Of a stretch of 62,784 nucleotides of DNA, positions 1-55,000 are shown piece after piece. The notes beneath the pieces are model-generated. The model saw nothing but the letters and a program-made list of their open reading frames with translations, searched no databases and was not told the DNA's origin. The DNA lies in NCBI GenBank assembly GCA_030141605.1, contig JAQGDQ010001099.1, positions 1 through 62,784 on the forward strand, written 5' to 3'. Every line of letters begins with the position of its first letter. Positions within the stretch are counted from its first letter, which is position 1. The translations under genes and the position numbers were made by a program. The stretch comes from Tubiluchus corallicola. Its lineage: Eukaryota > Animalia > Priapulida.

Positions 1-504
1 TATTGCTTTAGTCTTTACACTTACGCTTATGAGGTGACTAGTCGTATATTGCTCTAGTCTTTACACTTACGCTTATGAGGTGACTAGTCGTATATTGCTC
101 TAGTCTTTACACTTACACTTATAAGGTGACTAGTCATATATTGCTATAGTCTTTACACTTACGCTTATGAGGTGACTAGTCGTATGTTGCTCTAGTCTTT
201 ACACTTACGCTTATGAGGTGACTAGTCGTAAGTGTAAAGACTAGTTCTTCCATGACTAGCTCATGCTCTTGTAGAAAAAATTTCCTTAAATAAGTACAGA
301 ATTGCTGGGTGTCTGTTTATTACAAATTACGTACTTTAACCTTTGCATAGAGTTAAATGTACAGTATGAAACAGGTTTGCAAGGGCAGATCCATGCAACC
401 ATGAGTAAACATTTTTACTCCAGAAGAAGCGCAGTACTGGCGTAGCTCTCGACACGTGACCTCTGACCTCTCACGTAACTGTGACCTCTCTTACTTGCTT
501 GCAG

Positions 505-642
505 AGTAAGATCGATCGTCTGGAAAGCGGTTTGGAGAAGCTCCGCACGACGGCGCTGCAGGTGGACGAGTTGAAGGCGATACTCGCGGAGCAGGAAGTG
601 GAGCTGACGCAGAAGAACGAAGACGCGGACAAACTCATTCAG
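505..642 (+). CDS. Dynein exon [13 protein letters not shown]...ADKLIQ (stalk CC1); copies at 19468-19605(-), 43206-43343(+), 62143-62280(-)
   Basis: tgcag|AGTAAG ... CAG|gtgaaa, 138 nt. Confidence 0.9.
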
Positions 643-3600
643 GTGAAAAAGTTTTTTTTATACACCTTTTCCGCTCCGCAGTTTGAGTTGGAGTGCTCGG
701 TGGGCCGAATTTACGTGTAGGGGGACCAGAACGTATTTTGCTTTCAAGAATAATCCTTTAACCCTTTCACTACGGAAGGCGGCACACTGCTGCCTGGGTT
801 TTTCATGCAAGGGACGGAAGGCGGTAGACTGCCGCTCAAACTCAGTGCCGTTACCCAGGTCTGTTTACTTCACTGCAGCGGCCATGCAAAAACATTGGAG
901 AAAAGTTTAACAGCCCTGGGATTGGGGTTGCTTTGCTACAAGTAATGCTAACCAGCCAATCAGCATCTGAAGCCAGGTGCAGTCCACAATACTGTACTGT
1001 ATGGTATGTTCTCATGCAAAATCACTTGTAGATCGTTGATGAAACCTATAGTGTTTAGTTCATTGTTCTGCATTCTTATAAAATGATTGCATATTATAAA
1101 TTAGTAACATGACTTTTGTGAAAACTGGTTTCTAAATATAAGTACATGCTTATTTATGAATGTGTGCACGTGTGTGTGTGTGTGTTTGCGTGCATGCGTG
1201 CGTGTGTGTGTGCATGAGTTCATGTATGTGTGGTCACATGTGTAGAAACAAAACTAATATTTAATATTAGTACTCAATAACAAGCAACTATTTGTTTATT
1301 TACAAAATTCTGTTTTGGTAACACACCATAAGAAGTTATTGTCAAATGTGCAAAAGTCGGCGTGATGCAGTTAAAAAGCAACTACGTAGTGAAAGGGTTA
1401 AGATAAGACACGCAGCCAAGAGAGGTTGCTTACCTGTGTTCTGTTGTGTGCACGTGTCATTCTTTAGTGAAAGAAGTAGTCAGAAGTAGTAAATTAGATC
1501 AAACTCTCCAGGAACATTTTCCTCAGCTGTCACTAATCCATTTATTAGCCAGGCACAGCGATGCTTAAACTTGTCCACCTATCACACACGGTACCAGTTA
1601 GCTATTTACTTTGCTTTACTTGAAGTCAAAATATTGTTTTATAAAAGGACTTTTAAAGTTAATATACCTTTTATTGTTATTGGCATCCTTCTGTCTAGGA
1701 AGACAATGGAATGTGCGCCAAGAGAGTCCGATCCTTGAACGTCTCCAGGGCGCATGCCTGGGCAAGGTGTATGGAGATCCTGAGTTGCCCAGACCGCAGG
1801 AACCCCCTCTCTTCCTCTCTTGTGTAGTCCAAAGGAAAGCGGAGCGATACGTTTGGCACCAGGTTGGCTGCAGGAGCTGCCGGAGTCAGTGAGCATGCTG
1901 CACTGGTCCGCCTTGATTTGGAAGGTTTACTCCTCTACACATGGCCGTTGGGTCACTTGACCTCCTCTGCCCTCTAGCCGTTGGCTGCTTGTGCAGCTCC
2001 TGCGCCTAGTGTCAAGATACAATGTATGCATCCTTTTATAGCTGCATAATAAGTGTTTAAATCACTTTATACCTATTTTGTAAGATTTTGTACATACCTT
2101 TCTATAATACTGTTGCGGAGGCGGCCAAGAGGTCGAGGGTTCAAATCTAGGTCAGCCATGTTGCAGACAAATGTTGTAAATGAGAAAATACGCAAGAAAC
2201 ATCAAAATTTAAACAGAAAATTAAGATGAAAACTAGCCAGAACCTTTTCCTCATGCTGATCGTGACTACGGAACAGGTGCTTAGGTGGTAAACGTTCCTC
2301 TCCGTCTGCCGATTGAACGGGGGCAAAATGCAGTTTATTTTCGACCCCCCTCTACGTTGAGATGGTTTGATCCTTCACGAAGCCATTCGCATAGCTGCCA
2401 TACAGTGGTGATATGCAACAGCTTCATGTTGGATCGAACCATCACAACGTAGAGGCGGGTCGAAAATAAATTGCATTTTACCCGCGTAACAGTATATTAG
2501 CATATTTGTATAGAAGCTATTCTAAAAAACTTTTTAGTTGTAATTAGTTTATATTGGACTGCCATCCGCTCATAGCGGAGGCAGGACGGATCGCACCGCG
2601 GCCCACACCGTGCAGCATGTCTTAATTATGTCATTCAACGCTTCACCCATAAACAAAGATTGAATAATAGAGTCAGTCGAAATGACAATTTATTATTGAA
2701 TTTTACACGTTAAATAAGGAACGACCAGCTTACCTACAGGAACAGAGTTTGCGAGAAAAGCCTGAGAAATGTGAACAGAGCTGCACATGCTACGAAAGAC
2801 ATGACCACTGACAAGGATCTACAGAGCAGACCTTCCCTTTTATAAGCTCAGGTGTGCGTGTGACTAGTGGCTTTTACTAACACAAGGTCAGAATACGAGT
2901 CTGTGCTAGATAAAGCCACGTTCACATGCACACCCGAGCAGTCTACTGTATTCCCCTGCCAGCATTACATTTCATTTCATCACAGCCCTGTAGTACAAGA
3001 TGTTTTTATACATTTGCCATTTCTCGGCCGTGCATTAAACGGACGCTAAATTTCTTCACAATGCATTAAACAGGTGGTCGCCGTGGAGACGGAGAAGGTG
3101 AGCAAAGAGAAGGCAATCGCCGACGAGGAGGAGAAGAAGGTTGCCATCATCAACGAGGAGGTGGCCAAGAGGCAGAAGGAGTGCGAACAGGAGCTAGCCC
3201 TTGCCGAACCTGCCCTTATTGCTGCCCAGGAGGCGTTGAACACTCTTAACAAGGTGCGCCTGTGGACGATGGAGTTTTTTTATTTCAATTTTTTTTTGAT
3301 TGTTTTTTTGTCTTGTTTCCTTCAGGACCGTAAGAGTTCATGAAAAACTGCAAGAGTTCATGAAAAACTGCAAGGGTTCATGAAAAACTGCAAGAGTTCA
3401 TGAAAAACTGCAAGGGTTCATGAAAAACTGCAAGAGTTCATGAAAAACTGCAAGAGTTCATGAAAAACTGTGAGGGTTCATGAAAAACTGCAAGAGTTCA
3501 TGAAAAACTGCAAGAGTTCATGAAAAACTGCAAGGGTTCATGAAAAACTGCAAGAGTTCATGAAAAACTGCAAGGGTTCATGAAAAACTGCAAGGGTTCA

Positions 3601-6600
3601 TGAAAAACTGCAAGGGTTCATGAAAAACTGCAAGGGTTCATGAAAAACTGCAAGAGTTCATGAAAAACTGCAAGGGTTCATGAAAAACTGCAAGGGTTCA
3701 TGAAAAACTGCAAGAGTTCATGAAAAACTGCAAGGGTTCATGAAAAACTGCAAGAGTTCATGGAAAACTGCAAGAGTTCATGAAAAACTGCAAGGGTTCA
3801 TGAAAAACTGCAAGAGTTCATGAAAAACTGCAAGAGTTCATGAAAAACTGCAAGAGTTCATGAAAAACTGCAAGGGTTCATGAAAAACTGCAAGAGTTCA
3901 TGAAAAACTGCAAGAGTTCATGAAAAACTGCAAGGGTTCATGAAAAACTGCAAGAGTTCATGAAAAACTGTAAGGGTTCATGAAAAACTGCAAGGGTTCA
4001 TGGAAAACTGCAAGAGTTCATGAAAAACTGCAAGAGTTCATGAAAACTGCAAGGGTTCATGAAAACTGCAAGGGTTCATGAAAAACTGCAAGAGTTCATG
4101 AAAACTGCAAGGGTTCATGAAAAACTGCAAGAGTTCATGAAAAACTGTAAGGGTTCATGAAAAACTGCAAGAGTTCATGAAAACTGCAAGGGTTCATGAA
4201 AAACTGCAAGAGTTCATGAAAAACTGCAAGGGTTCATGAAAAACTGCAAGAGTTCATGGAAAACTGCAAGAGTTCATGAGAAACTGCAAGAGTTCATGAA
4301 AAACTGCAAGAGTTCATGAAAAACTGCAAGGGTTCATGAAAAACTGCAAGGGTTCATGAAAAACTGCAAGGGTTCATGAAAAACTGCAAGAGTTCATGAA
4401 AAACTGCAAGAGTTCATGAAAAACTGCAAGAGTTCATGAAAAACTGCAAGAGTTCATGAAAAACTGCAAGAGTTCATGAAAAACTGCAAGAGTTCATGAG
4501 AAACTGTAAGGGTTCATGAGAAACTGCAAGAGTTCATGAAAAACTGCAAGGGTTCATGAGAATCTGCTCTCACTAAGCAGCGATTACGTTATATTTGATA
4601 ATTTTTGTAGGTTTCTACTCCTCACACAATGGATTTTCATGCAAAATTATCAATGAAATACGTTTGCTCACCTTAGACAAATTAAAAATCAATTTTTCAC
4701 GGAAAAAAATGCACAAAGCTTTCAATAACTGCAATGTTTGCACTGTAACAATGTACAGTATCACTCCTGTGAAATCGGCAAATGTAGAAAATTTCAACTA
4801 TCCAGACACAACACTCTGATTCACTTTAGCCTCAAATCTACTGTATTTTTAAGGAGAAATTCCTGTTAAAAGATGAAACGACCTGTATTTCTCCTTGGCT
4901 GATCGATTGGTTTTTCCTGGAATAGCAGCAGAACACTGCACAGCTTGGTCTGTAGCAAGCAGGTGATCAATAAAATAGTGTGTACGATCACGCAAGTGTA
5001 CACCAGGCTAAGGTACTCAATAGACTAGCTAATCAAGCAAGTGTACACCAGACTAAGCTACTCAATAGACTAGCTAATCAAGCAAGTGGACACCAGACTA
5101 AGCTACTCGATAGGCTAGCTAATCACGCAAGTGGACACCAGACTAAGCTACTCGATAGGCTAAGTTGGAGTGCTTGAAGAGGGCGTTTTTTTCTTAATGT
5201 TATTCAATAAAATCACTTATAAATGTTTAAACAAATAGCAGGATTGGATAGCCAAGATTCTCCTGAATAGAACAGTTACATAATTTGTAATCATTTAGTT
5301 ATGTCTGGGCTCATACAGTAGCAGAAAAGTCCTAATCTTTTAAGAACAATTTTGAACGGTGCGGTCCTGAACGAGTTAAAAAGAGCTCGACACAAATGAC
5401 ATTTCTCACCCCAGTCAGCCATAATAAGAATTCCAATGCAGAGTGTATCAATCAAAGTGTTCAGTATGTGCAACGGCCGTAAATATTCCTTAAGGCAATA
5501 AAAGGCGTTCGAATTGAAAATTTTCACCGATGCTCGATCTCGAAGATTTCTCCTGAAATAAATTTTTGTTCTGAATGCATTTGTAATAAACCTGAATTAA
5601 ACCTTTTCTCGTTGGTGTCTAATACGGTTGACATAAATACTTTTCATTGATCTGTCCAAAAATTCTTTTTGGGTTTAATTTTGACTTCCCACAATCACAA
5701 CTTTCAACTCACCCCTGGTAGCGGCAATTGTAAAGCCGCCATATCGGTTGGGATTGGATCGGATCGGCCAATTGGTAAAAGTATTCGGATCGGATTAGAA
5801 CACAAGTTTCCATGGTAACATCCGGCACATCCCTGGTAACTGGCCAGGTGCGATACGGCACGTGAAATTACTCGAAAACAGTTTTTGCCACAATCACCAA
5901 TCCATTTACTCATTAGACTTGATGTTGCTCGACTTCTCTCACTGAATAAATATCACGATCACTCGGTTATTCACAATGCAGTAAAATTATTTGCCATTTC
6001 TTGTTCCAGAACAATCTGACAGAACTGAAGTCATTCGGCACTCCGCCGCCCATCGTCGTCAGCGTCGCCGCTGCCGTCATGTGCCTACTCGCTCCGAACG
6101 GAAGAGTGCCGCGCGACAGAAGCTGGAAAAATGCCAAACTGATGATGCAAAGGGTATGTAACGTGTTGTTACATGTTTTACGAAGACTAATGAGGTAATC
6201 AGTGTAATTACTGAGGTAACTCACATCTCGGTTTGCCGGACTAAAGTGGGGAGAAAAATGTTTCACAAATATTCAACAGGAAAGATATTCCACGAGCGTG
6301 TTGCATGTGTTTACGAAAGCGAAAATCGAAGTACAGTGTTACTGTAAGATATTCAGCGCGTTGTACTAAAACTAGGCAAGTTTTAAGATAAAAATTCAAA
6401 TTTCAAGTTTAACCCCATTCGGCTCGTGCAACGAAAAATGGCGGTTCTTCAAGTTTAATACTGCTAACAACAGAATTATAAAAAATAAAATAAGTTTTAC
6501 AGTAAGTTTATAATAAAATAAATTGAATATTCGTATGAGAGTAGGATTTTAAGTTGTAAAAGCTTACATGTGTGCTTGCATATCAAAATCACCCATAAGT

Positions 6601-9600
6601 TGGCAATTAAGTTTTTCTAGTTTTTTTCTAGAATCTTCATTTCATGAGGATCATTTTGATACCAAGTTCATCACTCTATGTTATTTGTAACCTGAGATAA
6701 TCCACGTTGAAGTTGAGGTGCAGGCTGCACATTGAAAAACATGATCTTGAGAAAATCATTGTTAAAGTCAGCCATTGTTTTTTGTCGCGTCTTTACAAAA
6801 CACTTAGTAACCGTGCAACAAATATTGGTTGCTATGGACTTTGTAAGAACACATTGATGTTATGTTTAAATGCTGTAGATGTCTCTTCCTGACAAAAAAT
6901 CCGAAGCAAAATGGCTGCTTCCACGAGCTTCTATCAGAGTTTGAAAATACAAGTTTTTTTACAATTGCTGTACTAGTTTCTACTCTGAAAAGTGAGTATG
7001 AGATTATAAGATTAAATTTTTAGTATTTTTTGGACATTTTCTTGACAATTTGATGCTAGAATATAAAAGTCCAATATATTTAGCATTTATTTTTGTAAAA
7101 AACAAAAAATTGACATTTCAGCAAATTTTTGGTGCATTCAACTTTGAAGCGTCATAACATAGTTTTAATTAAGCCGACTTGTGGACGGTTTTGGTTTGCA
7201 AGCAGACATTATAGCGAAGGTGTCAGTTTGACACTAAATTTACCGATGATGCGTAAGAGGCTTTTTGTGCTAAACAATAACGATGTGCATTGTTTCATGA
7301 CAGTGCTAAACAATAACGATGTGCATTGTTTCATGACAGTTCTAAACAATAACGATGTGCATTGTTTCATGACAGTGCTAAACAATAACGATGTGCATTG
7401 TTTCATGACAGTGCTAAACAATAACGATGTGCATTGTTTCATGACAGTGCTAAACAATAACGATGTGCATTGTTTCACGACAGTGCTAAACAATAACGAT
7501 GTGCATTGTTTCACGACAGTGCTAAACAATAACGATGTGCATTGTTTCACGACAGTGCTAAACAATAACGATGAGCATTGTTTCATGACAGTGCTAAACA
7601 ATAACGATGTGCATTGTTTCATGACAGTGCTAAACAATAACGATGTGCATTGTTTCATGACAGTGCTAAACAATAACGATGTGCATTGTTTCATGACAGT
7701 GCTAAACAATAACGATGTGCATTGTTTCACGACAGTGCTAAACAATAACGATGTGCATTGTTTCACGACAGTGCTAAACAATAACGATGAGCATTGTTTC
7801 ACGACAGTGCTAAATGATAACAATGTGCATTGTTTCACGACAGCGCTAAACGATAACAATATGCACTGTTTCACGACAGCGCTAAACAATAACAATGTGC
7901 ACTGTTTCACGGCAGTGCTAAACAATAACAATGTGCATTGTTTCACGACAGTGCTAAACGATAACAATATGCACTGTTTCACGACAGCGCTAAACAATAA
8001 CAATATGCACTGTTTCACGGCAGTGCTAAATAATGTGCAATGTTTCATGATACAATTTTATCTAATGATTGCTAGGTTGATTTTTTTCTGGATCAGCTAA
8101 TTAACTACGACAAAGAAAACATACCCGAGAGTAGCCTAAAAGCTGTAAACGAGTACTTGGCCCTTCCTGGCTTCAAGCCGGAGATCGTCCTGACGAAATC
8201 GTTTGCCGCAGGAGGTAAAGAGTTTTCGTTTCACGTTCCGCTTGCTAAAAATCCGTTTTTGTTTTCGCGAAACCGCCCGAAATTTAGGTGGACGGATTTC
8301 TGGACCAGCTGATCACCTACGACAAGGAGAACATCCACGAGAACTGTCTGAAGGCGGTGGCGGCGTACATTGCCGATCCGGACTTCAATCCCGAATTCGT
8401 CTCCGGGAAGTCGTTCGCTGCGGGAGGTACTCAGGCCGACTTTCTCTAGAAATGACTGCACCTATTCACTTCTTCTTCTTCTTCCCAGCTTTTCCCTATG
8501 CGGGGTCGCCATACTGCACCTATTCACTGCATCCCTGAAAGCACAACTTTGTGTCCAAAACCTCTATACTCCGCAACTCACGCCTTGTATTACGCCTCAC
8601 ATTGCGTACACCACGCCTCGTACCTCACTGAGTTCCCCACATTTCACAGCGTGAGATACTTGATCCAGGCTTTTCCAGGAATTATTCCCACGTCCGTAAG
8701 CTCACAAATTCATGTCCCCTACCTTTGCAATCCACGACTCATTTCAATCTGTATTACACCTCACATTGCGTATACCACATCTCACACCGCACGTGCCGCA
8801 CTTCACATTGTGTTCCCCGCGCCTCACTTTGTTTACCACGCTTCACAGCCGGAGATACGTGATCCAGCTTTTTCCTGAATGTTATGTCTGTGTGCTCACA
8901 ACTTTATAACCTATACCTTTTCAATCCACAATGCATTCCTTTCTATATTATACCTCACTCTGTGTTCCCCACGCCTCTCTCTGTCTCTCCTACATCTCAC
9001 ACTACATACCTGTACTTCAAGCTATACCTGACATTTTACACCATTACTCTGCACTAAAGTTATTTACTTATATATCCCACCATGTTATACTTTCAAGCTA
9101 TACCTGACATTTTACACCATTACTCTGCACTAAAGTTATTTACTTATATATCCCACCATGTTATACTTTCAAATTACAAATGATTCCACATTACGGGGGT
9201 TTTCATGATGGATGTCTCTAGAATTCTCTTAAGTTACATTGTCAACCATGTCAACTGACTGTAAACAGTCAACCTCGGATATAAGGGACACCTCCGGACC
9301 GGAAAAAACCGTCCTTTATATCCGACGTCCCTTATAGCCGAAGTTGAGTCAGACCGAGCGTGTATCTAGACCTGTACTTTTACCCATATTTCTATGGATT
9401 ATTGCTACACATTCAGTGCAAACGGCATGTAGGAAGCTCCTTCAGTGATGCGAGATGTATGTGACCGCGGAAACCGAGCTGTTCGAAGGCCGAGTTTGCC
9501 AAAAATTGAGGTTAAAAATCGATCAATTTCACATTGATCATAGGCTCCCTTATATGCGAGGTAAATTAGCTGGGTTTCTATTACGCGGGACCTGAAGATA

Positions 9601-10922
9601 TCATCCCTTAGAACCGAAAGTCCCTTACATCCGAGTATCTTATATACAACAATACGAAAAATTGGGACCAGTGTTGGTGGTCCCTTATATCCGAGTACCT
9701 TATATACGAAGATTTTTATAAGGAAAAACGTTACGAACAATCGGGACCGGTGTTGGTGGTCCTTTATAAGCGAATACCTTATACCCGAGGTTGACTGTAT
9801 ATGATTTTGTGATGATTTCTATGCATCGACTTTCCTCTCTTCGGCTGCCTGTCTTTGCACATCTTACTAGGACGCTTCACGATCAATACTCTCTTTTCTT
9901 CTGCATGCTTATATTGCCTCCTTGCTACCATGACCTTGAGTAGTTGCTAAGCAAACGGGATTTTGTTTTTTATGTAAACGTTTTTTACAGGCACATAAAA
10001 ACATTTACAGTCAATCAACCTCTGGTATAATGTACTCGTTTATAAGGGACGCTCGCTTAGAAGGGACCACATCGACAGATCCCGATTTTTCGTAACATTT
10101 TTCCTATGTAAAAATCTTTGTATATAAGGTACTCAAATATAAGGAGTTTCGCTTATAAGGGACCACATTGACAGATCCCGATTTTTCGTAACATTTTTCG
10201 TATGTAAAAGTCTTTGTATATAAGGTACTCGGTTGTAAGGGACGATATCTTCAGGTCCCGCGAAATAGAAACCCAGGTAAATTACCTCGCATATAAGGAA
10301 CCCTATGACCAAAGCGAAATTGATCGATTTTTAACATCAATTTTTCGCAAATTCCGCATTCGAACAGCTCGGTTTCCGTGGTCACGTACATCTCGCATCA
10401 CTGAAGGAGCTTCCTACTTACCTTTTGCACTGAATGTGTAGCAATAATCCATAAAAATATGGGTAAAAGTACAGAAAAGTACAGGTCTAGATACACCCTC
10501 GGTCTGACTAAACTTCGGCTATAAGGGACATCGGATATAAGGGACGGTTTTTTCTGGTCCCGAGGTGTCCCTTATATCCGAGGTTGACTGTATTTAGAAA
10601 AGAACACAAAACTATATTAAAAAACATGCTTATCAGTTAGTGTATTTGTGCTTGTGCACATTGGAAGCCGTAATCTTAACGATTTTTTGTTCAAAGCTGT
10701 TAACGATAAAATGACAGTTTCGCCGCGCATCGCCCCGTTGTTCTGACCGCTGTCCGACTTACGAATGCTGGCTGTTTAGGTCTTTGTTCGTGGGTGATAA
10801 ACATCGTCAAATTTTACGACGTCTACTGCGAAGTGGAACCGAAGAGAATCGCTCTTCAGCAGGCGAACGACGAGTTGACAGCAGCGCAGGAGAAACTGGC
10901 CAGCATCAAGAAACATCTACAG
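505..10922 (+). CDS. DNAH9/11/17-like: Axonemal dynein heavy chain fragment, copy 1 (stalk/MTBD exons), partial
   Basis: AG/GT-bounded in-phase exons 505-642, 3074-3253, 6010-6153, 8076-8214 or 8288-8426, 10780-10922; [39 protein letters not shown] are typical dynein stalk motifs. Confidence 0.92.
762..1397. mobile_element. piggyBac-type non-autonomous element (MITE); copies at 18709-19348, 43463-44102, 61387-62023
   Basis: 13-bp TIR CCCTTTCACTACG...CGTAGTGAAAGGG flanked on both sides by TTAA (758-761, 1398-1401); no transposase. Confidence 0.82.
2320..2483. mobile_element. ~165-bp imperfect foldback (small MITE-like hairpin), present in all four copies
   Basis: AAAATGCAGTTTATTTTCGACCC...CTCTACGTTG pairs with CAACGTAGAG...GGGTCGAAAATAAATTGCATTTT. 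Confidence 0.65.
3074..3253 (+). CDS. Dynein exon VVAVETEK...ALNTLNK (CC1 into MTBD); copies at 16871-17050(-), 45761-45940(+), 59531-59710(-)
   Basis: aacag|GTG ... AAG|gtgcgc, 180 nt. Confidence 0.92.
3330..4562. repeat. 20-bp tandem satellite; also ~15558-16793, ~46018-47252, ~58222-59453
   Basis: Unit CAAG(A/G)GTTCATGAAAAACTG, about 60 copies. Confidence 0.97.
4986..5165. repeat. 45-bp minisatellite, about 4 units (also ~57620-57800); a single unit in copies 2 and 3
   Basis: Unit CAAGCAAGTGTACACCAGACTAAGCTACTCAATAGACTAGCTAAT. Confidence 0.88.
6010..6153 (+). CDS. Dynein exon [13 protein letters not shown]...AKLMMQR (MTBD); copies at 14114-14257(-), 48561-48704(+), 56631-56774(-)
   Basis: tccag|AAC ... 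AGG|gtatgt, 144 nt. Confidence 0.92.
6568..7209. mobile_element. ~640-bp TIR element (non-autonomous DNA transposon, family unassigned); copies at ~13058-13700, ~49119-49760, ~55575-56217
   Basis: Imperfect TIRs ATGTGTGCTTGCATATCAAAATCACCCATAAGT / ACTTGTGGACGGTTTTGGTTTGCAAGCAGACAT; an independent diverged copy at ~32203-32845. Confidence 0.7.
7267..8050. repeat. 36-bp tandem satellite; also ~12362-13000, ~49818-50457, ~54735-55518
   Basis: Unit GTGCTAAACAATAACGATGTGCATTGTTTCATGACA; source of the spurious 231-323 aa ORFs. Confidence 0.97.
8076..8214 (+). CDS. Candidate alternative MTBD exon A: [46 protein letters not shown]; copies at 12197-12335(-), 50483-50621(+), 54570-54708(-)
   Basis: gctag|GTT ... 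GGAG|gtaaag, 139 nt, open frame, paralogous to the next exon. Confidence 0.82.
8288..8426 (+). CDS. MTBD exon B: [46 protein letters not shown]; copies at 11985-12123(-), 50695-50833(+), 54358-54496(-)
   Basis: tttag|GTG ... GGAG|gtactc, 139 nt; [14 protein letters not shown] is typical of beta-type axonemal dyneins. Confidence 0.9.
9266..9797. mobile_element. Tc1/mariner (pogo-like) MITE; mirror copy 52999-53530
   Basis: TIR CAGTCAACCTCGG...CCGAGGTTGACTG, TA on the right flank, TATAAGGGAC subterminal repeats. Confidence 0.8.
10008..10590. mobile_element. Second copy of the same MITE, opposite orientation; mirror copy 52206-52788
   Basis: TA|CAGTCAA...GGTTGACTG|TA; ~10210-10590 is the reverse complement of ~9266-9650 with scattered substitutions. 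Confidence 0.8.
10780..10922 (+). CDS. Dynein exon [30 protein letters not shown]...KKHLQ (end of MTBD, CC2), in the left inner spacer
   Basis: tttag|GT ... CAG|gtaacg, 143 nt; completes the split Gly codon of exon A/B. Confidence 0.92.
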
Positions 10923-11846: not shown

Positions 11847-11940
11847 AACATTAAATGAAGCAAAGCAAACAGATGCGAGAAAACGATAAGGAAGATGTTG
11901 TTGTTGATGACGATGATAATGATGATGTTGATGACGATGA
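11146..11940. repeat. Compound (GAT/GTT)n microsatellite repeat related to 25325-26018; mirror ~50878-51651
   Basis: Shares TTCATCCATTTAGCACAATGTAACAAAA and CGAATTAACAATGCATTGCAGTGCTATGA blocks with 25325-26018. Confidence 0.85.
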
Positions 11941-11984
11941 AGTGATTAGGTGCAGTCATTTCTAGAGAAAGTCGGCTCGAGTAC

Positions 11985-32150
<20,166 letters not shown>

Positions 32151-32202
32151 CTGAAACAAATGTACGTTTGATACGTGTTATTGCAATGACCGGTGGACAG
32201 AA

Positions 32203-48500: not shown

Positions 48501-50833
48501 ATGTCACGATCACTCGGTTATTCACAATGCAGTAAAATTATTTGCCATTTCTTGTTCCAGAACAATCTGACAGAACTGAAGTCATTCGGCACTCCGCCGC
48601 CCATCGTCGTCAGCGTCGCCGCTGCCGTCATGTGCCTGCTCGCTCCGAACGGAAGAGTGCCGCGCGACAGAAGCTGGAAAAATGCCAAACTGATGATGCA
48701 AAGGGTATGTAACGCGTTGTTACATGTTTTACGAAGACTAACGTGGTAATCAGTGTAATTGCTGAGGTAACTCACATCTCGGTTTGCCGGAGTAAAGTGG
48801 GGAGAAAAATATTCCACAAATATTTAACAGGAAAGATATTCCACGAGCGTGTTGCGCGTGTTTGCGAAAGCGAAAATTGAAGTACAGTGCTACTGTAAGA
48901 TATTCAGTGTGTTGTACTGAAACTAGGCAAGTTTTAAGATAAAAATTCAAATTTCAAGTTTAACCCCATTCGGCTCGTGCAACGAAAAATGGCGGTTCTT
49001 CAAATTTAATACTGCTAACAACAGAATTATAAAAAATAAAATAAGTTTTACAGTAAGTTTATAATAAAATAAATTGAATATTCGTATGAGAGTAGGATTT
49101 TAAGTTGTAAAAGCTTACATGTGTGCTTGCATATCAAAATCACCCATAAGTTGGCAATTAAGTTTTTCTAGTTTTTTTCTAGAATCTTCATTTCATGAGG
49201 ATCATTTTGATACCAAGTTCATCACTCTATGTTATTTCTAAGCTGAGATAATCCACATTGAAATTGAGGTGCAGGCTGCACATTGAAAAACATGATCTTG
49301 AGAAAATCATTGTTAAAGTCAGCCATTGTTTTTTGTCGCGTCTTTACAAAACACTTAGTAACCGTGCAACAAATATTGGTTGCTATGGACTTTGTAAGAA
49401 CACATTGATGTTATGTTTAAATGCTGTAGATGTCTCTTCCTGACAAAAAATCCGAAGCAAAATGGCTGCTTCCACGAGCTTCTATCAGAGTTTGAAAATA
49501 CAAGTTTTTTTACAATTGCTGTACTAGTTTCTACTCTGAAAAGTGAGTATGAGATTATAAGATTAAATTTTTAGTATTTTTTGGACATTTTCTTGACAAT
49601 TTGATGCTAGAATATAAAAGTCCAATATATTTAGCATTTATTTTTGTAAAAAACAAAAAATTGACATTTCAGCAAATTTTTGGTGCATTCAACTTTGAAG
49701 CGTCATAACATAGTTTTAATTAAGCCGACTTGTGGACGGTTTTGGTTTGCAAGCAGACATTATAGCGAAGGTGTCAGTTTGACACTAAATTTACCGATGA
49801 TGCGTAAGAGGCTTTTTGTGCTAAACAATAACGATGTGCATTGTTTCATGACAGTGCTAAACAATAACGATGTGCATTGTTTCATGACAGTTCTAAACAA
49901 TAACGATGTGCATTGTTTCATGACAGTGCTAAACAATAACGATGTGCATTGTTTCATGACAGTGCTAAACAATAACGATGTGCATTGTTTCATGACAGTG
50001 CTAAACAATAACGATGTGCATTGTTTCATGACAGTGCTAAACAATAACGATGTGCATTGTTTCATGACAGTGCTAAACAATAACGATGTGCATTGTTTCA
50101 TGACAGTGCTAAACAATAACGATGTGCATTGTTTCACGACAGTGCTAAACAATAACGATGAGCATTGTTTCACGACAGTGCTAAATGATAACAATGTGCA
50201 TTGTTTCACGACAGCGCTAAACGATAACAATATGCACTGTTTCACGACAGCGCTAAACAATAACAATGTGCACTGTTTCACGGCAGTGCTAAACAATAAC
50301 AATGTGCATTGTTTCACGACAGTGCTAAACGATAACAATATGCACTGTTTCACGACAGCGCTAAACAATAACAATATGCACTGTTTCACGACAGCGCTAA
50401 ACAATAACAATGTGCACTGTTTCACGGCAGTGCTAAATAATGTGCAATGTTTCATGATACAATTTTATCTAATGATTGCTAGGTTGATTTTTTTCTGGAT
50501 CAGCTAATTAACTACGACAAAGAAAACATACCCGAGAGTAGCCTAAAAGCTGTAAACGAGTACTTGGCCCTTCCTGGCTTCAAGCCGGAGATCGTCCTGA
50601 CGAAATCGTTTGCCGCAGGAGGTAAAGAGTTTTCGTTTCACGTTCCGCTTGCTAAAAATCCGTTTTTGTTTTCGCGAAACCGCCCGAAATTTAGGTGGAC
50701 GGATTTCTGGACCAGCTGATCACCTACGACAAGGAGAACATCCACGAGAACTGTCTGAAGGCGGTGGCGGCGTACATTGCCGATCCGGACTTCAATCCCG
50801 AATTCGTCTCCGGGAAGTCGTTCGCTGCAGGAG
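33318..50833 (+). CDS. DNAH9/11/17-like: Axonemal dynein heavy chain fragment, copy 3 (AAA4 to MTBD), partial
   Basis: Exons 33318-33511, 36538-36700, 37583-37738, 38166-38276, 39135-39296, 41453-41629, 43206-43343, 45761-45940, 48561-48704, then 50483-50621 or 50695-50833. Confidence 0.93.
36538..36700 (+). CDS. Dynein AAA4 P-loop exon [27 protein letters not shown]...PDLK; copy at 26120-26282(-)
   Basis: Walker [10 protein letters not shown]; aag|A ... AAG|gtttgc, 163 nt. Confidence 0.95.
37583..37738 (+). CDS. Dynein exon [11 protein letters not shown]...[12 protein letters not shown]; copy at 25085-25240(-)
   Basis: tttag|GCC ... GAG|gcgagt (GC donor), 156 nt. Confidence 0.88.
38166..38276 (+). 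CDS. Dynein exon [12 protein letters not shown]...RVRRMLK; copy at 24547-24657(-)
   Basis: tttag|ATA ... AAG|gtactc, 111 nt. Confidence 0.9.
39135..39296 (+). CDS. Dynein exon VVLCFSPVG...[11 protein letters not shown]...EILS; copy at 23527-23688(-)
   Basis: attag|GTT ... TCG|gtaagt, 162 nt. Confidence 0.93.
41453..41629 (+). CDS. Dynein exon [10 protein letters not shown]...[11 protein letters not shown]...NELM; copy at 21194-21370(-)
   Basis: tgcag|CCG ... ATG|gtgagt, 177 nt. Confidence 0.92.
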
Positions 50834-52016: not shown

Positions 52017-55000
52017 CTAAACAGCCAGCATTCGTAAGTCGGACAGCGGTCAGAACAACGGGGCGATGCGCGGCGAAACTGTCATTTTATCGTTAACAGC
52101 TTTGAACAAAAAATCGTTAAGATTACGGCTTCCAATGTGCACAAGCACAAATACACTAACTGATAAGCATGTTTTTTAATATAGTTTTGTGTTCTTTTCT
52201 AAATACAGTCAACCTCGGATATAAGGGACACCTCAGGACCGAAAAAAACCGTCCCTTATATCCGATGTCCCTTATAGCCGAAGTTTAGTCAGACCGAGGG
52301 TGTATCTAGACCTGTACTTTTCTGTACTTTTACCCATATTTTTATGGATTATTGCTACACATTCAGTACAAAAGGTAAGTAGGAAGCTCCTTCAGTGATG
52401 CGAGATGTACGTGACCACGGAAACCGAGCTGTTCGAATGCGGAATTTGCGAAAAATTGATGTTAAAAATCGATCAATTTCGCTTTGGTCATAGGGTTCCT
52501 TATATGCGAGGTAATTTACCTGGGTTTCTATTTCGCGGGACCTGAAGATATCGTCCCTTACAACCGAGTACCTTATATACAAAGACTTTTACATACGAAA
52601 AATGTTACGAAAAATCGGGATCTGTCAATGTGGTCCCTTATAAGCGAAACTCCTTATATTTGAGTACCTTATATACAAAGACTTTTACATAGGAAAAATG
52701 TTACGAAAAATCGGGATCTGTCGATGTGGTCCCTTCTAAGCGAGCGTCCCTTATAAACGAGTACATTATACCAGAGGTTGATTGACTGTAAATGTTTTTA
52801 TGTGCCTGTAAAAAACGTTTACATAAAAAACAAAATCCCGTTTGGTTAGCAACTACTCAAGCTCATGGTAGCAAGGAGGCAATATAAGCATGCAGAAGAA
52901 AAGAGAGTATTGATCGTGAAGCGTCCTAGTAAGATGTGCAAAGACAGGCAGCCGAAGAGAGGAAAGTCGATGCATAGAAATCATCACAAAATCATATACA
53001 GTCAACCTCGGGTATAAGGTATTCGCTTATAAAGGACCACCAACACCGGTCCCGATTGTTCGTAACGTTTTTCCTTATAAAAATCTTCGTATATAAGGTA
53101 CTCGGATATAAGGGACCACCAACACTGGTCCCAATTTTTCGTATTGTTGTATATAAGATACTCGGATGTAAGGGACTTTCGGTTCTAAGGGATGATATCT
53201 TCAGGTCCCGCGTAATAGAAACCCAGCTAATTTACCTCGCATATAAGGGAGCCTATGATCAATGTGAAATTGATCGATTTTTAACCTCAATTTTTGGCAA
53301 ACTCGGCCTTCGAACAGCTCGGTTTCCGCGGTCACATACATCTCGCATCACTGAAGGAGCTTCCTACATGCCGTTTGCACTGAATGTGTAGCAATAATCC
53401 ATAGAAATATGGGTAAAAGTACAGGTCTAGATACACGCTCGGTCTGACTCAACTTCGGCTATAAGGGACGTCGGATATAAAGGACGGTTTTTTCCGGTCC
53501 GGAGGTGTCCCTTATATCCGAGGTTGACTGTTTACAGTCAGTTGACATGGTTGACAATGTAACTTAAGAGAATTCTAGAGACATCCATCATGAAAACCCC
53601 CGTAATGTGGAATCATTTGTAATTTGAAAGTATAACATGGTGGGATATATAAGTAAATAACTTTAGTGCAGAGTAATGGTGTAAAATGTCAGGTATAGCT
53701 TGAAGTACAGGTATGTAGTGTGAGATGTAGGAGAGACAGAGAGAGGCGTGGGGAACACAGAGTGAGGTGTAATATAGAAAGGAATGCATTGTGGATTGAA
53801 AAGAGAGAGGCGTGGGGAACACAGAGTGAGGTGTAATATAGAAAGGAATGCATTGTGGATTGAAAAAATATAGGTTATAAAGTTGTGAGCACACAGACAT
53901 AACATTCAGGAAAAAGCTGGATCACGTATCTCCGGCTGTGAAGCGTGGTAAACAAAGTGAGGCGTGGGGAACACAATGTGAAGTGCGGCACGTGCGGTGT
54001 GAGATGTGGTATACGCAATGTGAGGTGTAATACAGATTGAAATGAGTCGTGGATTGCAAAGGTAGGGGACATGAATTTGTGAGCTTACGGACGTGGGAAT
54101 AATTCCTGGAAAAGCCTGGATCAAGTATCTCACGCTGTGAAATGTGGGGAACTCAGTGAGGTACGAGGCGTGGTGTACGCAATGTGAGGCGTAATACAAG
54201 GCGTGAGTTGCGGAGTATAGAGGTTTTGGACACAAAGTTGTGCTTTCAGGGATGCAGTGAATAGGTGCAGTATGGCGACCCCGCATAGGGAAAAGCTGGG
54301 AAGAAGAAGAAGAAGTGAATAGGTGCAGTCATTTCTAGAGAAAGTCGGCCTGAGTACCTCCCGCAGCGAACGACTTCCCGGAGACGAATTCGGGATTGAA
54401 GTCCGGATCGGCAATGTACGCCGCCACCGCCTTCAGACAGTTCTCGTGGATGTTCTCCTTGTCGTAGGTGATCAGCTGGTCCAGAAATCCGTCCACCTAA
54501 ATTTCGGGCGGTTTCGCGAAAACAAAAACGGATTTTTAGCAAGCGGAACGTGAAACGAAAACTCTTTACCTCCTGCGGCAAACGATTTCGTCAGGACGAT
54601 CTCCGGCTTGAAGCCAGGAAGGGCCAAGTACTCGTTTACAGCTTTTAGGCTACTCTCGGGTATGTTTTCTTTGTCGTAGTTAATTAGCTGATCCAGAAAA
54701 AAATCAACCTAGCAATCATTAGATAAAATTGTATCATGAAACATTGCACATTATTTAGCACTGCCGTGAAACAGTGCATATTGTTATTGTTTAGCGCTGT
54801 CGTGAAACAGTGCATATTGTTATCGTTTAGCACTGTCGTGAAACAATGCACATTGTTATTGTTTAGCACTGCCGTGAAACAGTGCACATTGTTATTGTTT
54901 AGCGCTGTCGTGAAACAGTGCATATTGTTATCGTTTAGCGCTGTCGTGAAACAATGCACATTGTTATCATTTAGCACTGTCGTGAAACAATGCTCATCGT

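What the first reader, a model, noticed from the sequence alone, without database searches (positions are those of the whole stretch)
8076..8426. Candidate mutually exclusive exon pair that swaps part of the dynein microtubule-binding domain
Seen: two tandem exons 73 nt apart, both exactly 139 nt, both AG/GT-bounded, phase 0 in and phase 1 out, stop-free and alignable without gaps ([46 protein letters not shown] vs [46 protein letters not shown]). Many conserved residues use different codons, so the duplication is old yet has kept its frame. Known: this segment lies in the stalk-tip MTBD just before GLCSW; including both 3n+1 exons would frameshift. Inference: mutually exclusive splicing gives one outer-arm dynein gene two microtubule-binding tips with different charge (A is less acidic than B), perhaps for sperm versus cilia. 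I do not know whether this has been described.
Basis: partly seen in the sequence, partly recalled or inferred. Interest (0 to 1): 0.82.

Follow-up and report, generated by a model that had tools for sequence, protein, structure and literature searches.

The report
Ciliary dynein with two swappable foot-halves
An unidentified animal's gene for a cilium-beating motor (outer-arm dynein) holds two intact, long-diverged side-by-side copies of the exon for the back half of its microtubule-gripping foot, which are likely spliced one at a time to give two motor versions that would grip differently; no RNA was available to show this, and a second animal has a similar, likely independent, duplication.

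Summary
Observation confirmed. Exons A (8076-8214) and B (8288-8426) are both 139 nt, AG/GT-bounded, open and 32/46 aa identical, in a DNAH9/11/17-type outer-arm dynein heavy chain gene. In a model of a relative the segment is helices H4-H5-H6 of the microtubule-binding domain. Both copies have evolved under purifying selection (dN 0.21, dS 1.87; 8 of 8 invariant residues kept). Using both or neither breaks the frame, so mutually exclusive splicing is the best reading (about 0.75), but no RNA run was listed and A may be minor or recently idle. The overall charge gap is small (-3 vs -5, inside the range of 47 relatives); it sits in the H5-H6 loop, where A is +1, outside all 47. New here: 2 of 37 metagenome loci (one other animal) duplicate the same segment with a different 3' boundary, likely independently. 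Annotated isoforms in 20 protein clusters show no such swap. The window is a fold-back, two-haplotype assembly, but a public contig also holds the tandem pair. Sperm versus cilia is untested. The scan noted the same design before in cytoplasmic dynein-1 (front half of the domain) on other DNA; ten paper searches found no axonemal case.

The parts
6010..6153 (+). Upstream common exon (front half of the microtubule-binding domain, H1-H3), phase 0 donor GTATGT
   Evidence: Pfam MT 104-150; boundaries
8076..8214 (+). Exon A, 139 nt, divergent copy of H4-H5-H6; H5-H6 loop net +1
8215..8287 (+). 73-nt intron between A and B; shortest of 10 measured introns of the gene (others 423-2613 nt); one branch-point-like CTAA at +31 to +34; no significant fold
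8288..8426 (+). Exon B, 139 nt, consensus-like copy of H4-H5-H6
10780..10922 (+). Downstream common exon (stalk coil CC2), phase 1 acceptor
   Evidence: Pfam MT 199-243
12197..12335 (-). Exon A in the second haplotype-like copy (0 differences)
11985..12123 (-). Exon B in the second haplotype-like copy (1 synonymous difference)
50483..50833 (+). Mirror copy of the second-haplotype A-intron-B (window palindrome)
54358..54708 (-). Mirror copy of the first-haplotype A-intron-B (window palindrome)
11930..32156 (-). Second haplotype-like copy of the gene: 11 upstream coding exons (motor ring to stalk) plus A and B; only the H4-H6 exon is duplicated; copy ends about 55 nt after B

Best explanation
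This beta-type outer-arm dynein heavy chain gene carries two intact tandem copies of the exon for the back half of its microtubule-binding domain (predicted helices H4-H5-H6), which are likely spliced one at a time, so that one gene would make two motors differing only in that part of the foot. Shown: two equal 139-nt exons with canonical splice sites, long diverged at synonymous sites yet conserved in protein, where both or neither break the frame. Inferred: an old, lineage-specific exon duplication; exclusion enforced by decay of frame-shifted both-exon and no-exon transcripts, possibly helped by crowding in the 73-nt intron; B is the consensus-like form and A a tuned form whose H5-H6 loop has lost its acidic residues (+1 against 0 to -4 in 47 relatives), which would lessen repulsion from the acidic microtubule surface or tubulin tails and so alter binding or release. 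Which cells use A is unknown; sperm versus body cilia is a guess (about 0.35 if both exons are used).
For: Equal length, phase and AG/GT. LWL85 dN 0.21, dS 1.87; differences by codon position 8/10/26. A and B each keep 8 of 8 residues invariant in 47 reference proteins; A keeps 19 of 20 and B 18 of 20 columns conserved in at least 90%. Neutral decay of an exon B copy kept frame, splice sites and the 8 residues in 1 of 5000 runs at 0.4 substitutions per site and 0 of 5000 at 0.9. Skipping both stops at codon 54; intron retention stops at 8310-8312; A+B shifts the frame. Only this exon is duplicated among the 12 coding segments seen in the second copy. One contig of public run X1 spans 8055-8495 with 4 differences, synonymous in each exon. 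2 of 37 metagenome loci (L002, L003; identical exons, one species) carry two 170-nt copies of the same segment, 43/56 aa identical, whose joint use gives a stop. Model of relative P0056 (pLDDT 96.7, matches 3err_A at E 1.6e-8) places the exon on the 4th-6th helices of the domain; H6 contacts alpha-tubulin (PMC6629372). In C. elegans 14 of 19 non-3n clusters rely on decay (PMC4165533).
Against: No spliced transcript or protein with A or with B was seen. A has the lowest profile score of 51 sequences (108.8; next 121.1; B 130.3) and five positions off consensus where B is on it, against two the other way, which also fits relaxed selection. Whole-exon charge of A (-3) lies inside the reference range (-3 to -7). 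No same-gene isoform swap of this segment in 11 record pairs or in 10 further clusters, and 35 of 37 loci show one copy, so the arrangement is not widely conserved. No orthologue of A in a close relative could be found. No RNA stem in or around the intron (z +0.4 to +1.2).
Confidence: 0.75

Rival explanations
1. Exon B is now the only productive exon; A was once an alternative exon but is recently idle or used at trace level, and has not yet had time to decay.
For: A is the most divergent of 51 sequences and has lost acidic residues kept by 41 and 45 of 47 relatives; no transcript evidence for A; no A orthologue found. Identity between haplotypes cannot show present-day selection: 39% of intronic 139-nt windows are also identical.
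Against: A keeps both splice sites, its length and 19 of 20 near-invariant residues at saturated synonymous distance; the one variant seen in A in three versions is synonymous. The whole gene is fast-evolving (about 70% to all references), which explains part of A's low score.
Confidence: 0.18
2. Both exons are included together (or with the intron) and give a regulated non-productive or an extended product rather than two alternative motors.
For: A 73-nt intron is long enough to splice in some invertebrates (minimum about 40 nt in C. elegans, PMC4165533); A+B reaches no stop in the exons present.
Against: A+B is 278 nt and shifts the frame of B and of the stalk exon, losing the C-terminal part of the motor; conservation of B's own reading frame needs B to be read in phase 0.
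Confidence: 0.04
3. The tandem pair is an assembly artefact, for example exons of two paralogous genes or alleles joined by the same process that made the window a palindrome.
For: The window is a fold-back contig with two haplotype-like copies.
Against: Both haplotype copies hold the pair with the same 73-nt intron, a separately assembled contig of run X1 spans both exons with its own variants, and A and B are only 68% identical in DNA.
Confidence: 0.02

Closest known systems
Mutually exclusive exon of Schistosoma mansoni cytoplasmic dynein heavy chain SmDHC1 (PMC3228551, passages read; cited again in PMC5100056)
   Same: Equal-length homologous exon pair inside a dynein heavy chain gene, predicted to be mutually exclusive from length, frame and homology.
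   Different: That is cytoplasmic dynein-1; the passages read give no domain for the exon. Here the gene is an axonemal outer-arm beta chain and the exon is H4-H6 of the microtubule-binding domain. PMC5100056 says some dynein genes have alternative motor-domain forms without listing them, so this case may sit unreported in that data set.
Mammalian beta-type outer-arm paralogues DNAH9, DNAH11, DNAH17 (PMC7909641, passages read)
   Same: Same protein class (best structure hits DNAH9 then DNAH17); one animal fields more than one version of the beta chain.
   Different: Mammals use whole-gene duplicates for distal cilium, proximal cilium and sperm; amphioxus, tunicates and mussels also show separate records with different H4-H6 segments. 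Here only 46 residues would be swapped within one gene.
Arthropod muscle myosin heavy chain exon clusters (PMC3228551, passage read)
   Same: A motor domain tuned by duplicated, mutually exclusive exons.
   Different: Actin motor, many clusters, use established; here one pair and use not shown.
Earlier scan notes on dynein-1 genes with duplicated exons for the front half of the microtubule-binding domain (unchecked AI notes)
   Same: Duplicated exon in the dynein foot.
   Different: Cytoplasmic dynein-1 and the front half, reported as widely conserved; here axonemal, back half, and patchy.

Membership tests
Beta-type outer-arm dynein heavy chain (DNAH9/11/17 class) | Sequence closest to DNAH9/DNAH17 and algal beta chains, not to gamma-type, inner-arm or cytoplasmic chains | tested here: met
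   B vs DNAH9 E 1.6e-16, A 1.2e-9, DNAH17 second; other exons about 70% identical to animal 'dynein beta chain, ciliary' records
Beta-type outer-arm dynein heavy chain (DNAH9/11/17 class) | Stalk with six-helix microtubule-binding domain between CC1 and CC2 | tested here: met
   Pfam MT on five consecutive exon peptides; six helices in the model of relative P0056, not of the window's own spliced protein
Beta-type outer-arm dynein heavy chain (DNAH9/11/17 class) | Class-specific N-terminal tail and a complete motor ring | not testable with these tools
   The window holds only about residues 2585-3290 of a 4460-residue reference; no genome is held
Homologous mutually exclusive exon pair (criteria of PMC3228551 and PMC5740500) | Neighbouring exons of equal length, same splice-site type and frame, homologous | tested here: met
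Homologous mutually exclusive exon pair (criteria of PMC3228551 and PMC5740500) | Joint inclusion or joint skipping is non-productive | tested here: met
   Skip both: stop at codon 54; both: frame shifted, the stop itself lies beyond the exons in the window
Homologous mutually exclusive exon pair (criteria of PMC3228551 and PMC5740500) | Junction reads bridging each exon over the other | not testable with these tools
   No RNA holder listed; X1 covers introns and shows no exon-exon joint
Steric-interference exclusion | Donor-to-branch-point distance under about 50 nt (PMC5740500) | tested here: inconclusive
   One branch-point-like CTAA at +31 to +34 by a simple pattern; branch point not mapped; the parallel pair in L002 has a 564-nt intron
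Competing RNA structure (docker/selector) exclusion | Complementary intronic elements flanking each exon | tested here: not met
   No stable fold; only one low-complexity 10-mer and one 11-mer of complementarity in six comparisons; imperfect long-range pairing not excluded
U2/U12 incompatibility exclusion | Minor-class donor on one side of the pair | tested here: not met
   Donors GTATGT, GTAAAG, GTACTC do not fit the minor-class consensus, which is recalled and comes from no call

The most novel reading that the evidence does not exclude
The microtubule-binding foot of dyneins is a repeated target of exon duplication: at least two animal lineages independently duplicated the H4-H6 exon of their outer-arm beta chain and splice it by cell type (for example sperm versus body cilia), doing with one 46-residue swap what mammals do with DNAH9, DNAH11 and DNAH17. 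The A/B pair would then be a natural minimal experiment on how the H5-H6 loop charge reads tubulin tails and sets beat.
Probability: 0.25. Interest if true: 0.68.

Novelty: new member of a known kind. Interest (0 to 1): 0.42.

Why it matters
It is open what makes outer-arm dyneins of sperm and of body cilia differ, because the mammalian paralogues differ along 4,400 residues. Two isoforms that differ at 14 residues of the foot, with a +3 charge shift in one loop, would isolate the contribution of the track-binding surface. The second, likely independent duplication of the same segment suggests the change is useful. The splicing design itself is ordinary.

Tried and rejected
No whole genome is held. 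RNA: no RNA holder listed, which is no evidence either way; X1 behaves as DNA and left the downstream exon uncovered, a hole that proves nothing. X1 depth is 81.8 on the A-B contig against 6.6 on the upstream exon; not read as copy number, because that contig ends in a very high-copy repeat at 8468-8510. Haplotype identity of A (0/139) as proof of current selection: rejected, 1682 of 4313 intronic windows are also identical. RNA stem in the intron: rejected. Searches for close relatives of A: 0 of 7 candidates at 82-2000 aa, 1 generic hit at 25-81 aa, best identity 30/46 to A among 150 listed representatives, three window ORFs not in the collection, no usable Atlas hit; all weak negatives. The idea of an ancient bilaterian A/B pair (proline versus histidine at position 17, proline in 9 of 47 references): not supported, as A and B are sisters in the exon tree (support 0.85, 46 columns, no clade test run) and annotated isoforms do not differ there. 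Placing the species: the gene is unplaced in a FastTree of 802 columns (IQ-TREE timed out). Single-sequence fold was unusable (pLDDT 47.5). Papers: ten searches found no report of mutually exclusive exons in an axonemal dynein; the Dhc93AB hit is a skipped exon (PMC13423992, one passage); 2 supplement files of PMC5100056 had no hit and file 1 could not be searched, and it may bear on novelty; most subscription journals are not in the library.

Full report
Observation. The two exons are as described: A 8076-8214 and B 8288-8426, each 139 nt, each AG/GT-bounded, 73 nt apart, 32/46 aa and 95/139 nt identical, with 19 of 32 shared residues on different codons. Either one joins the upstream exon (6010-6153) to the downstream exon (10780-10922) in frame. 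Skipping both stops at codon 54, retaining the intron stops at 8310-8312, and using both shifts the frame, although the stop lies beyond the exons in the window. Pfam MT positions run 104-150, 152-196 (A and B alike) and 199-243.

The gene. The best structure hit is human DNAH9 3218-3262 (B 61.9 bits, A 40.6), then DNAH17. The other exons are about 70% identical to animal beta-type outer-arm chains, with no close relative; the species could not be placed. Other notes on this genome mention a priapulid resemblance, which I did not test. Of the 12 coding segments in the longer copy, only this one is duplicated.

The window is an assembly oddity. Positions 1-29,893 are mirrored at 62,784-32,966 (99.0%), and inside each arm 1-8480 recurs inverted at 20,100-11,930 (96-97%). 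The two inner copies differ by 1.8-4.5% in introns and 0-0.7% in exons, as alleles would, and meet in a low-complexity repeat near 11.6-11.9 kb. The pair therefore appears four times but is most likely one locus. It is not made by the fold-back: both copies hold it, and one contig of run X1 spans 8055-8495 with four differences, two of them synonymous changes found in neither window copy. X1 covers introns and repeats, so it behaves as DNA.

Is A alive? Synonymous sites are saturated while the protein is conserved (LWL85 dN 0.21, dS 1.87; 8/10/26 differences by codon position). Against 47 reference proteins, chosen by me from 120 listed hits plus one cluster member to spread over taxa, both exons keep all 8 invariant residues, and A keeps 19 and B 18 of 20 near-invariant ones. 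A neutral copy kept frame, splice sites and those 8 residues in 1 of 5000 simulations at 0.4 substitutions per site and 0 of 5000 at 0.9. So A was selected for most of its history. Against this, A scores lowest of 51 sequences on the profile, haplotype identity is uninformative, no orthologue of A was found, and no RNA holder was listed. Recent loss of use stays open (about 0.18).

What is swapped. The spliced window protein could not be folded, so I folded relative P0056 on a 65-row alignment (pLDDT 96.7), which matches dynein stalk structures including 3err_A (E 1.6e-8). Numbering its six helices in order (my inference from the six-helix layout in PMC6429364 and bioRxiv 2020.12.08.415687, passages read), the exon starts at H4 and covers H4, H5, H6 and the first residues of CC2. 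The 14 differences fall 1 in H4, 2 in the H4-H5 loop, 5 in H5, 3 in the H5-H6 loop, 2 in H6 and 1 just after it. H6 contacts alpha-tubulin (PMC6629372, passages and section 6 read). Charge changes in the cytoplasmic domain alter speed and run length (PMC4987762, passages), and in simulation cytoplasmic H5 touches tubulin tails (PMC6429364). It is concentrated in the H5-H6 loop: A +1, B -2, references 0 to -4. Both exons lack the basic residue at position 39 that 42 of 47 references have. A change in binding is inferred, not shown.

How exclusion would work. The frame makes both-or-neither products non-productive; in C. elegans 14 of 19 such clusters depend on decay (PMC4165533, passages). The 73-nt intron is the shortest of 10 measured (others 423-2613 nt; boundaries picked by eye, two introns left out), and its one branch-point-like motif is about 33 nt from the donor, under the 50-nt steric limit used for human genes (PMC5740500, passages; PMC2991248, passages). 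This is a possibility only. No RNA structure stood out.

Elsewhere. Two, L002 and L003, with identical exons, hold two copies of the same segment; 35 show one, 29 of the 37 having hits on both sides, and L004 and L006 being too short to show the first copy. The L002 exons are 170 nt each (2267-2436, 3001-3170), AG/GTAAGT, 43/56 aa identical, share the window's 5' boundary but end 31 nt later in phase 2, and give a stop if both are used. Its relative L001 has one exon with the same bounds. The first L002 copy is unchanged in 6 of 7 cluster records while the flanking intron reading varies. The different boundary and the exon tree (A with B, support 0.85) point to two independent duplications; the tree has only 46 columns and no clade test was run. 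Annotated records in 20 clusters (15 of 25 and 15 of 26 members listed for the two largest) show no same-gene swap of this segment.

Known or new. Mutually exclusive exons in motors are known, including one in Schistosoma cytoplasmic dynein (PMC3228551, passages), and PMC5100056 notes unnamed alternative motor-domain forms in some dynein genes (passages; two supplement files without hits, one not searchable). Earlier scan notes report the same design in the front half of the dynein-1 domain and none for axonemal dynein. Ten paper searches found no axonemal case. Mammals vary the beta chain by paralogues, DNAH11 and DNAH9 along cilia and DNAH17 in sperm (PMC7909641, passages), which is the only basis for the sperm-versus-cilia guess.

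Verdict. A real, old, selected exon duplication, likely mutually exclusive (0.75), with a likely independent parallel in a second animal. A new member of a known kind; interest 0.42, rising to about 0.68 if cell-type-specific use and a binding difference are shown.

Noticed in passing
window 1-62784: The whole window is a palindrome (1-29,893 mirrored at 62,784-32,966, 99%), each arm holding two inverted haplotype-like copies of part of the gene; most likely a fold-back assembly artefact, so other findings in this window may be counted up to four times.
   Followed up: partly
L002:2267-3170, L003 same: A second animal has two 170-nt copies of the same dynein segment with a 564-nt intron; its gene groups with L001 and Lingula in the tree (support 0.90).
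   Followed up: partly
window 7267-8050: A 36-nt tandem repeat ends about 25 nt before exon A's acceptor and forms stop-free frames of about 280-330 codons on both strands; copy number differs between haplotypes. It could affect use of A.
   Followed up: no
window 9265-9789 and 10035-10591: Two inverted, 83% identical elements with terminal inverted repeats in the intron after B, high-copy in run X1; likely non-autonomous DNA transposons.
   Followed up: no
window 8468-8510: A very high-copy short element 40 nt after exon B's donor, where the two haplotype copies stop aligning.
   Followed up: no
exon position 17 (window 8124-8126 and 8336-8338): A has proline and B histidine; human DNAH17 and one amphioxus paralogue have proline, DNAH9 and the other amphioxus paralogue histidine. 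One residue only, a weak hint.
   Followed up: partly
P0291/P0298, P0293/P0296, P0177/P0277, P0179/P0274, P0382/P0383: Annotated isoforms of this dynein in clams, a sea cucumber, an acorn worm and a sea urchin differ by a 42- or 5-residue insert at the same tail position near residue 612.
   Followed up: no
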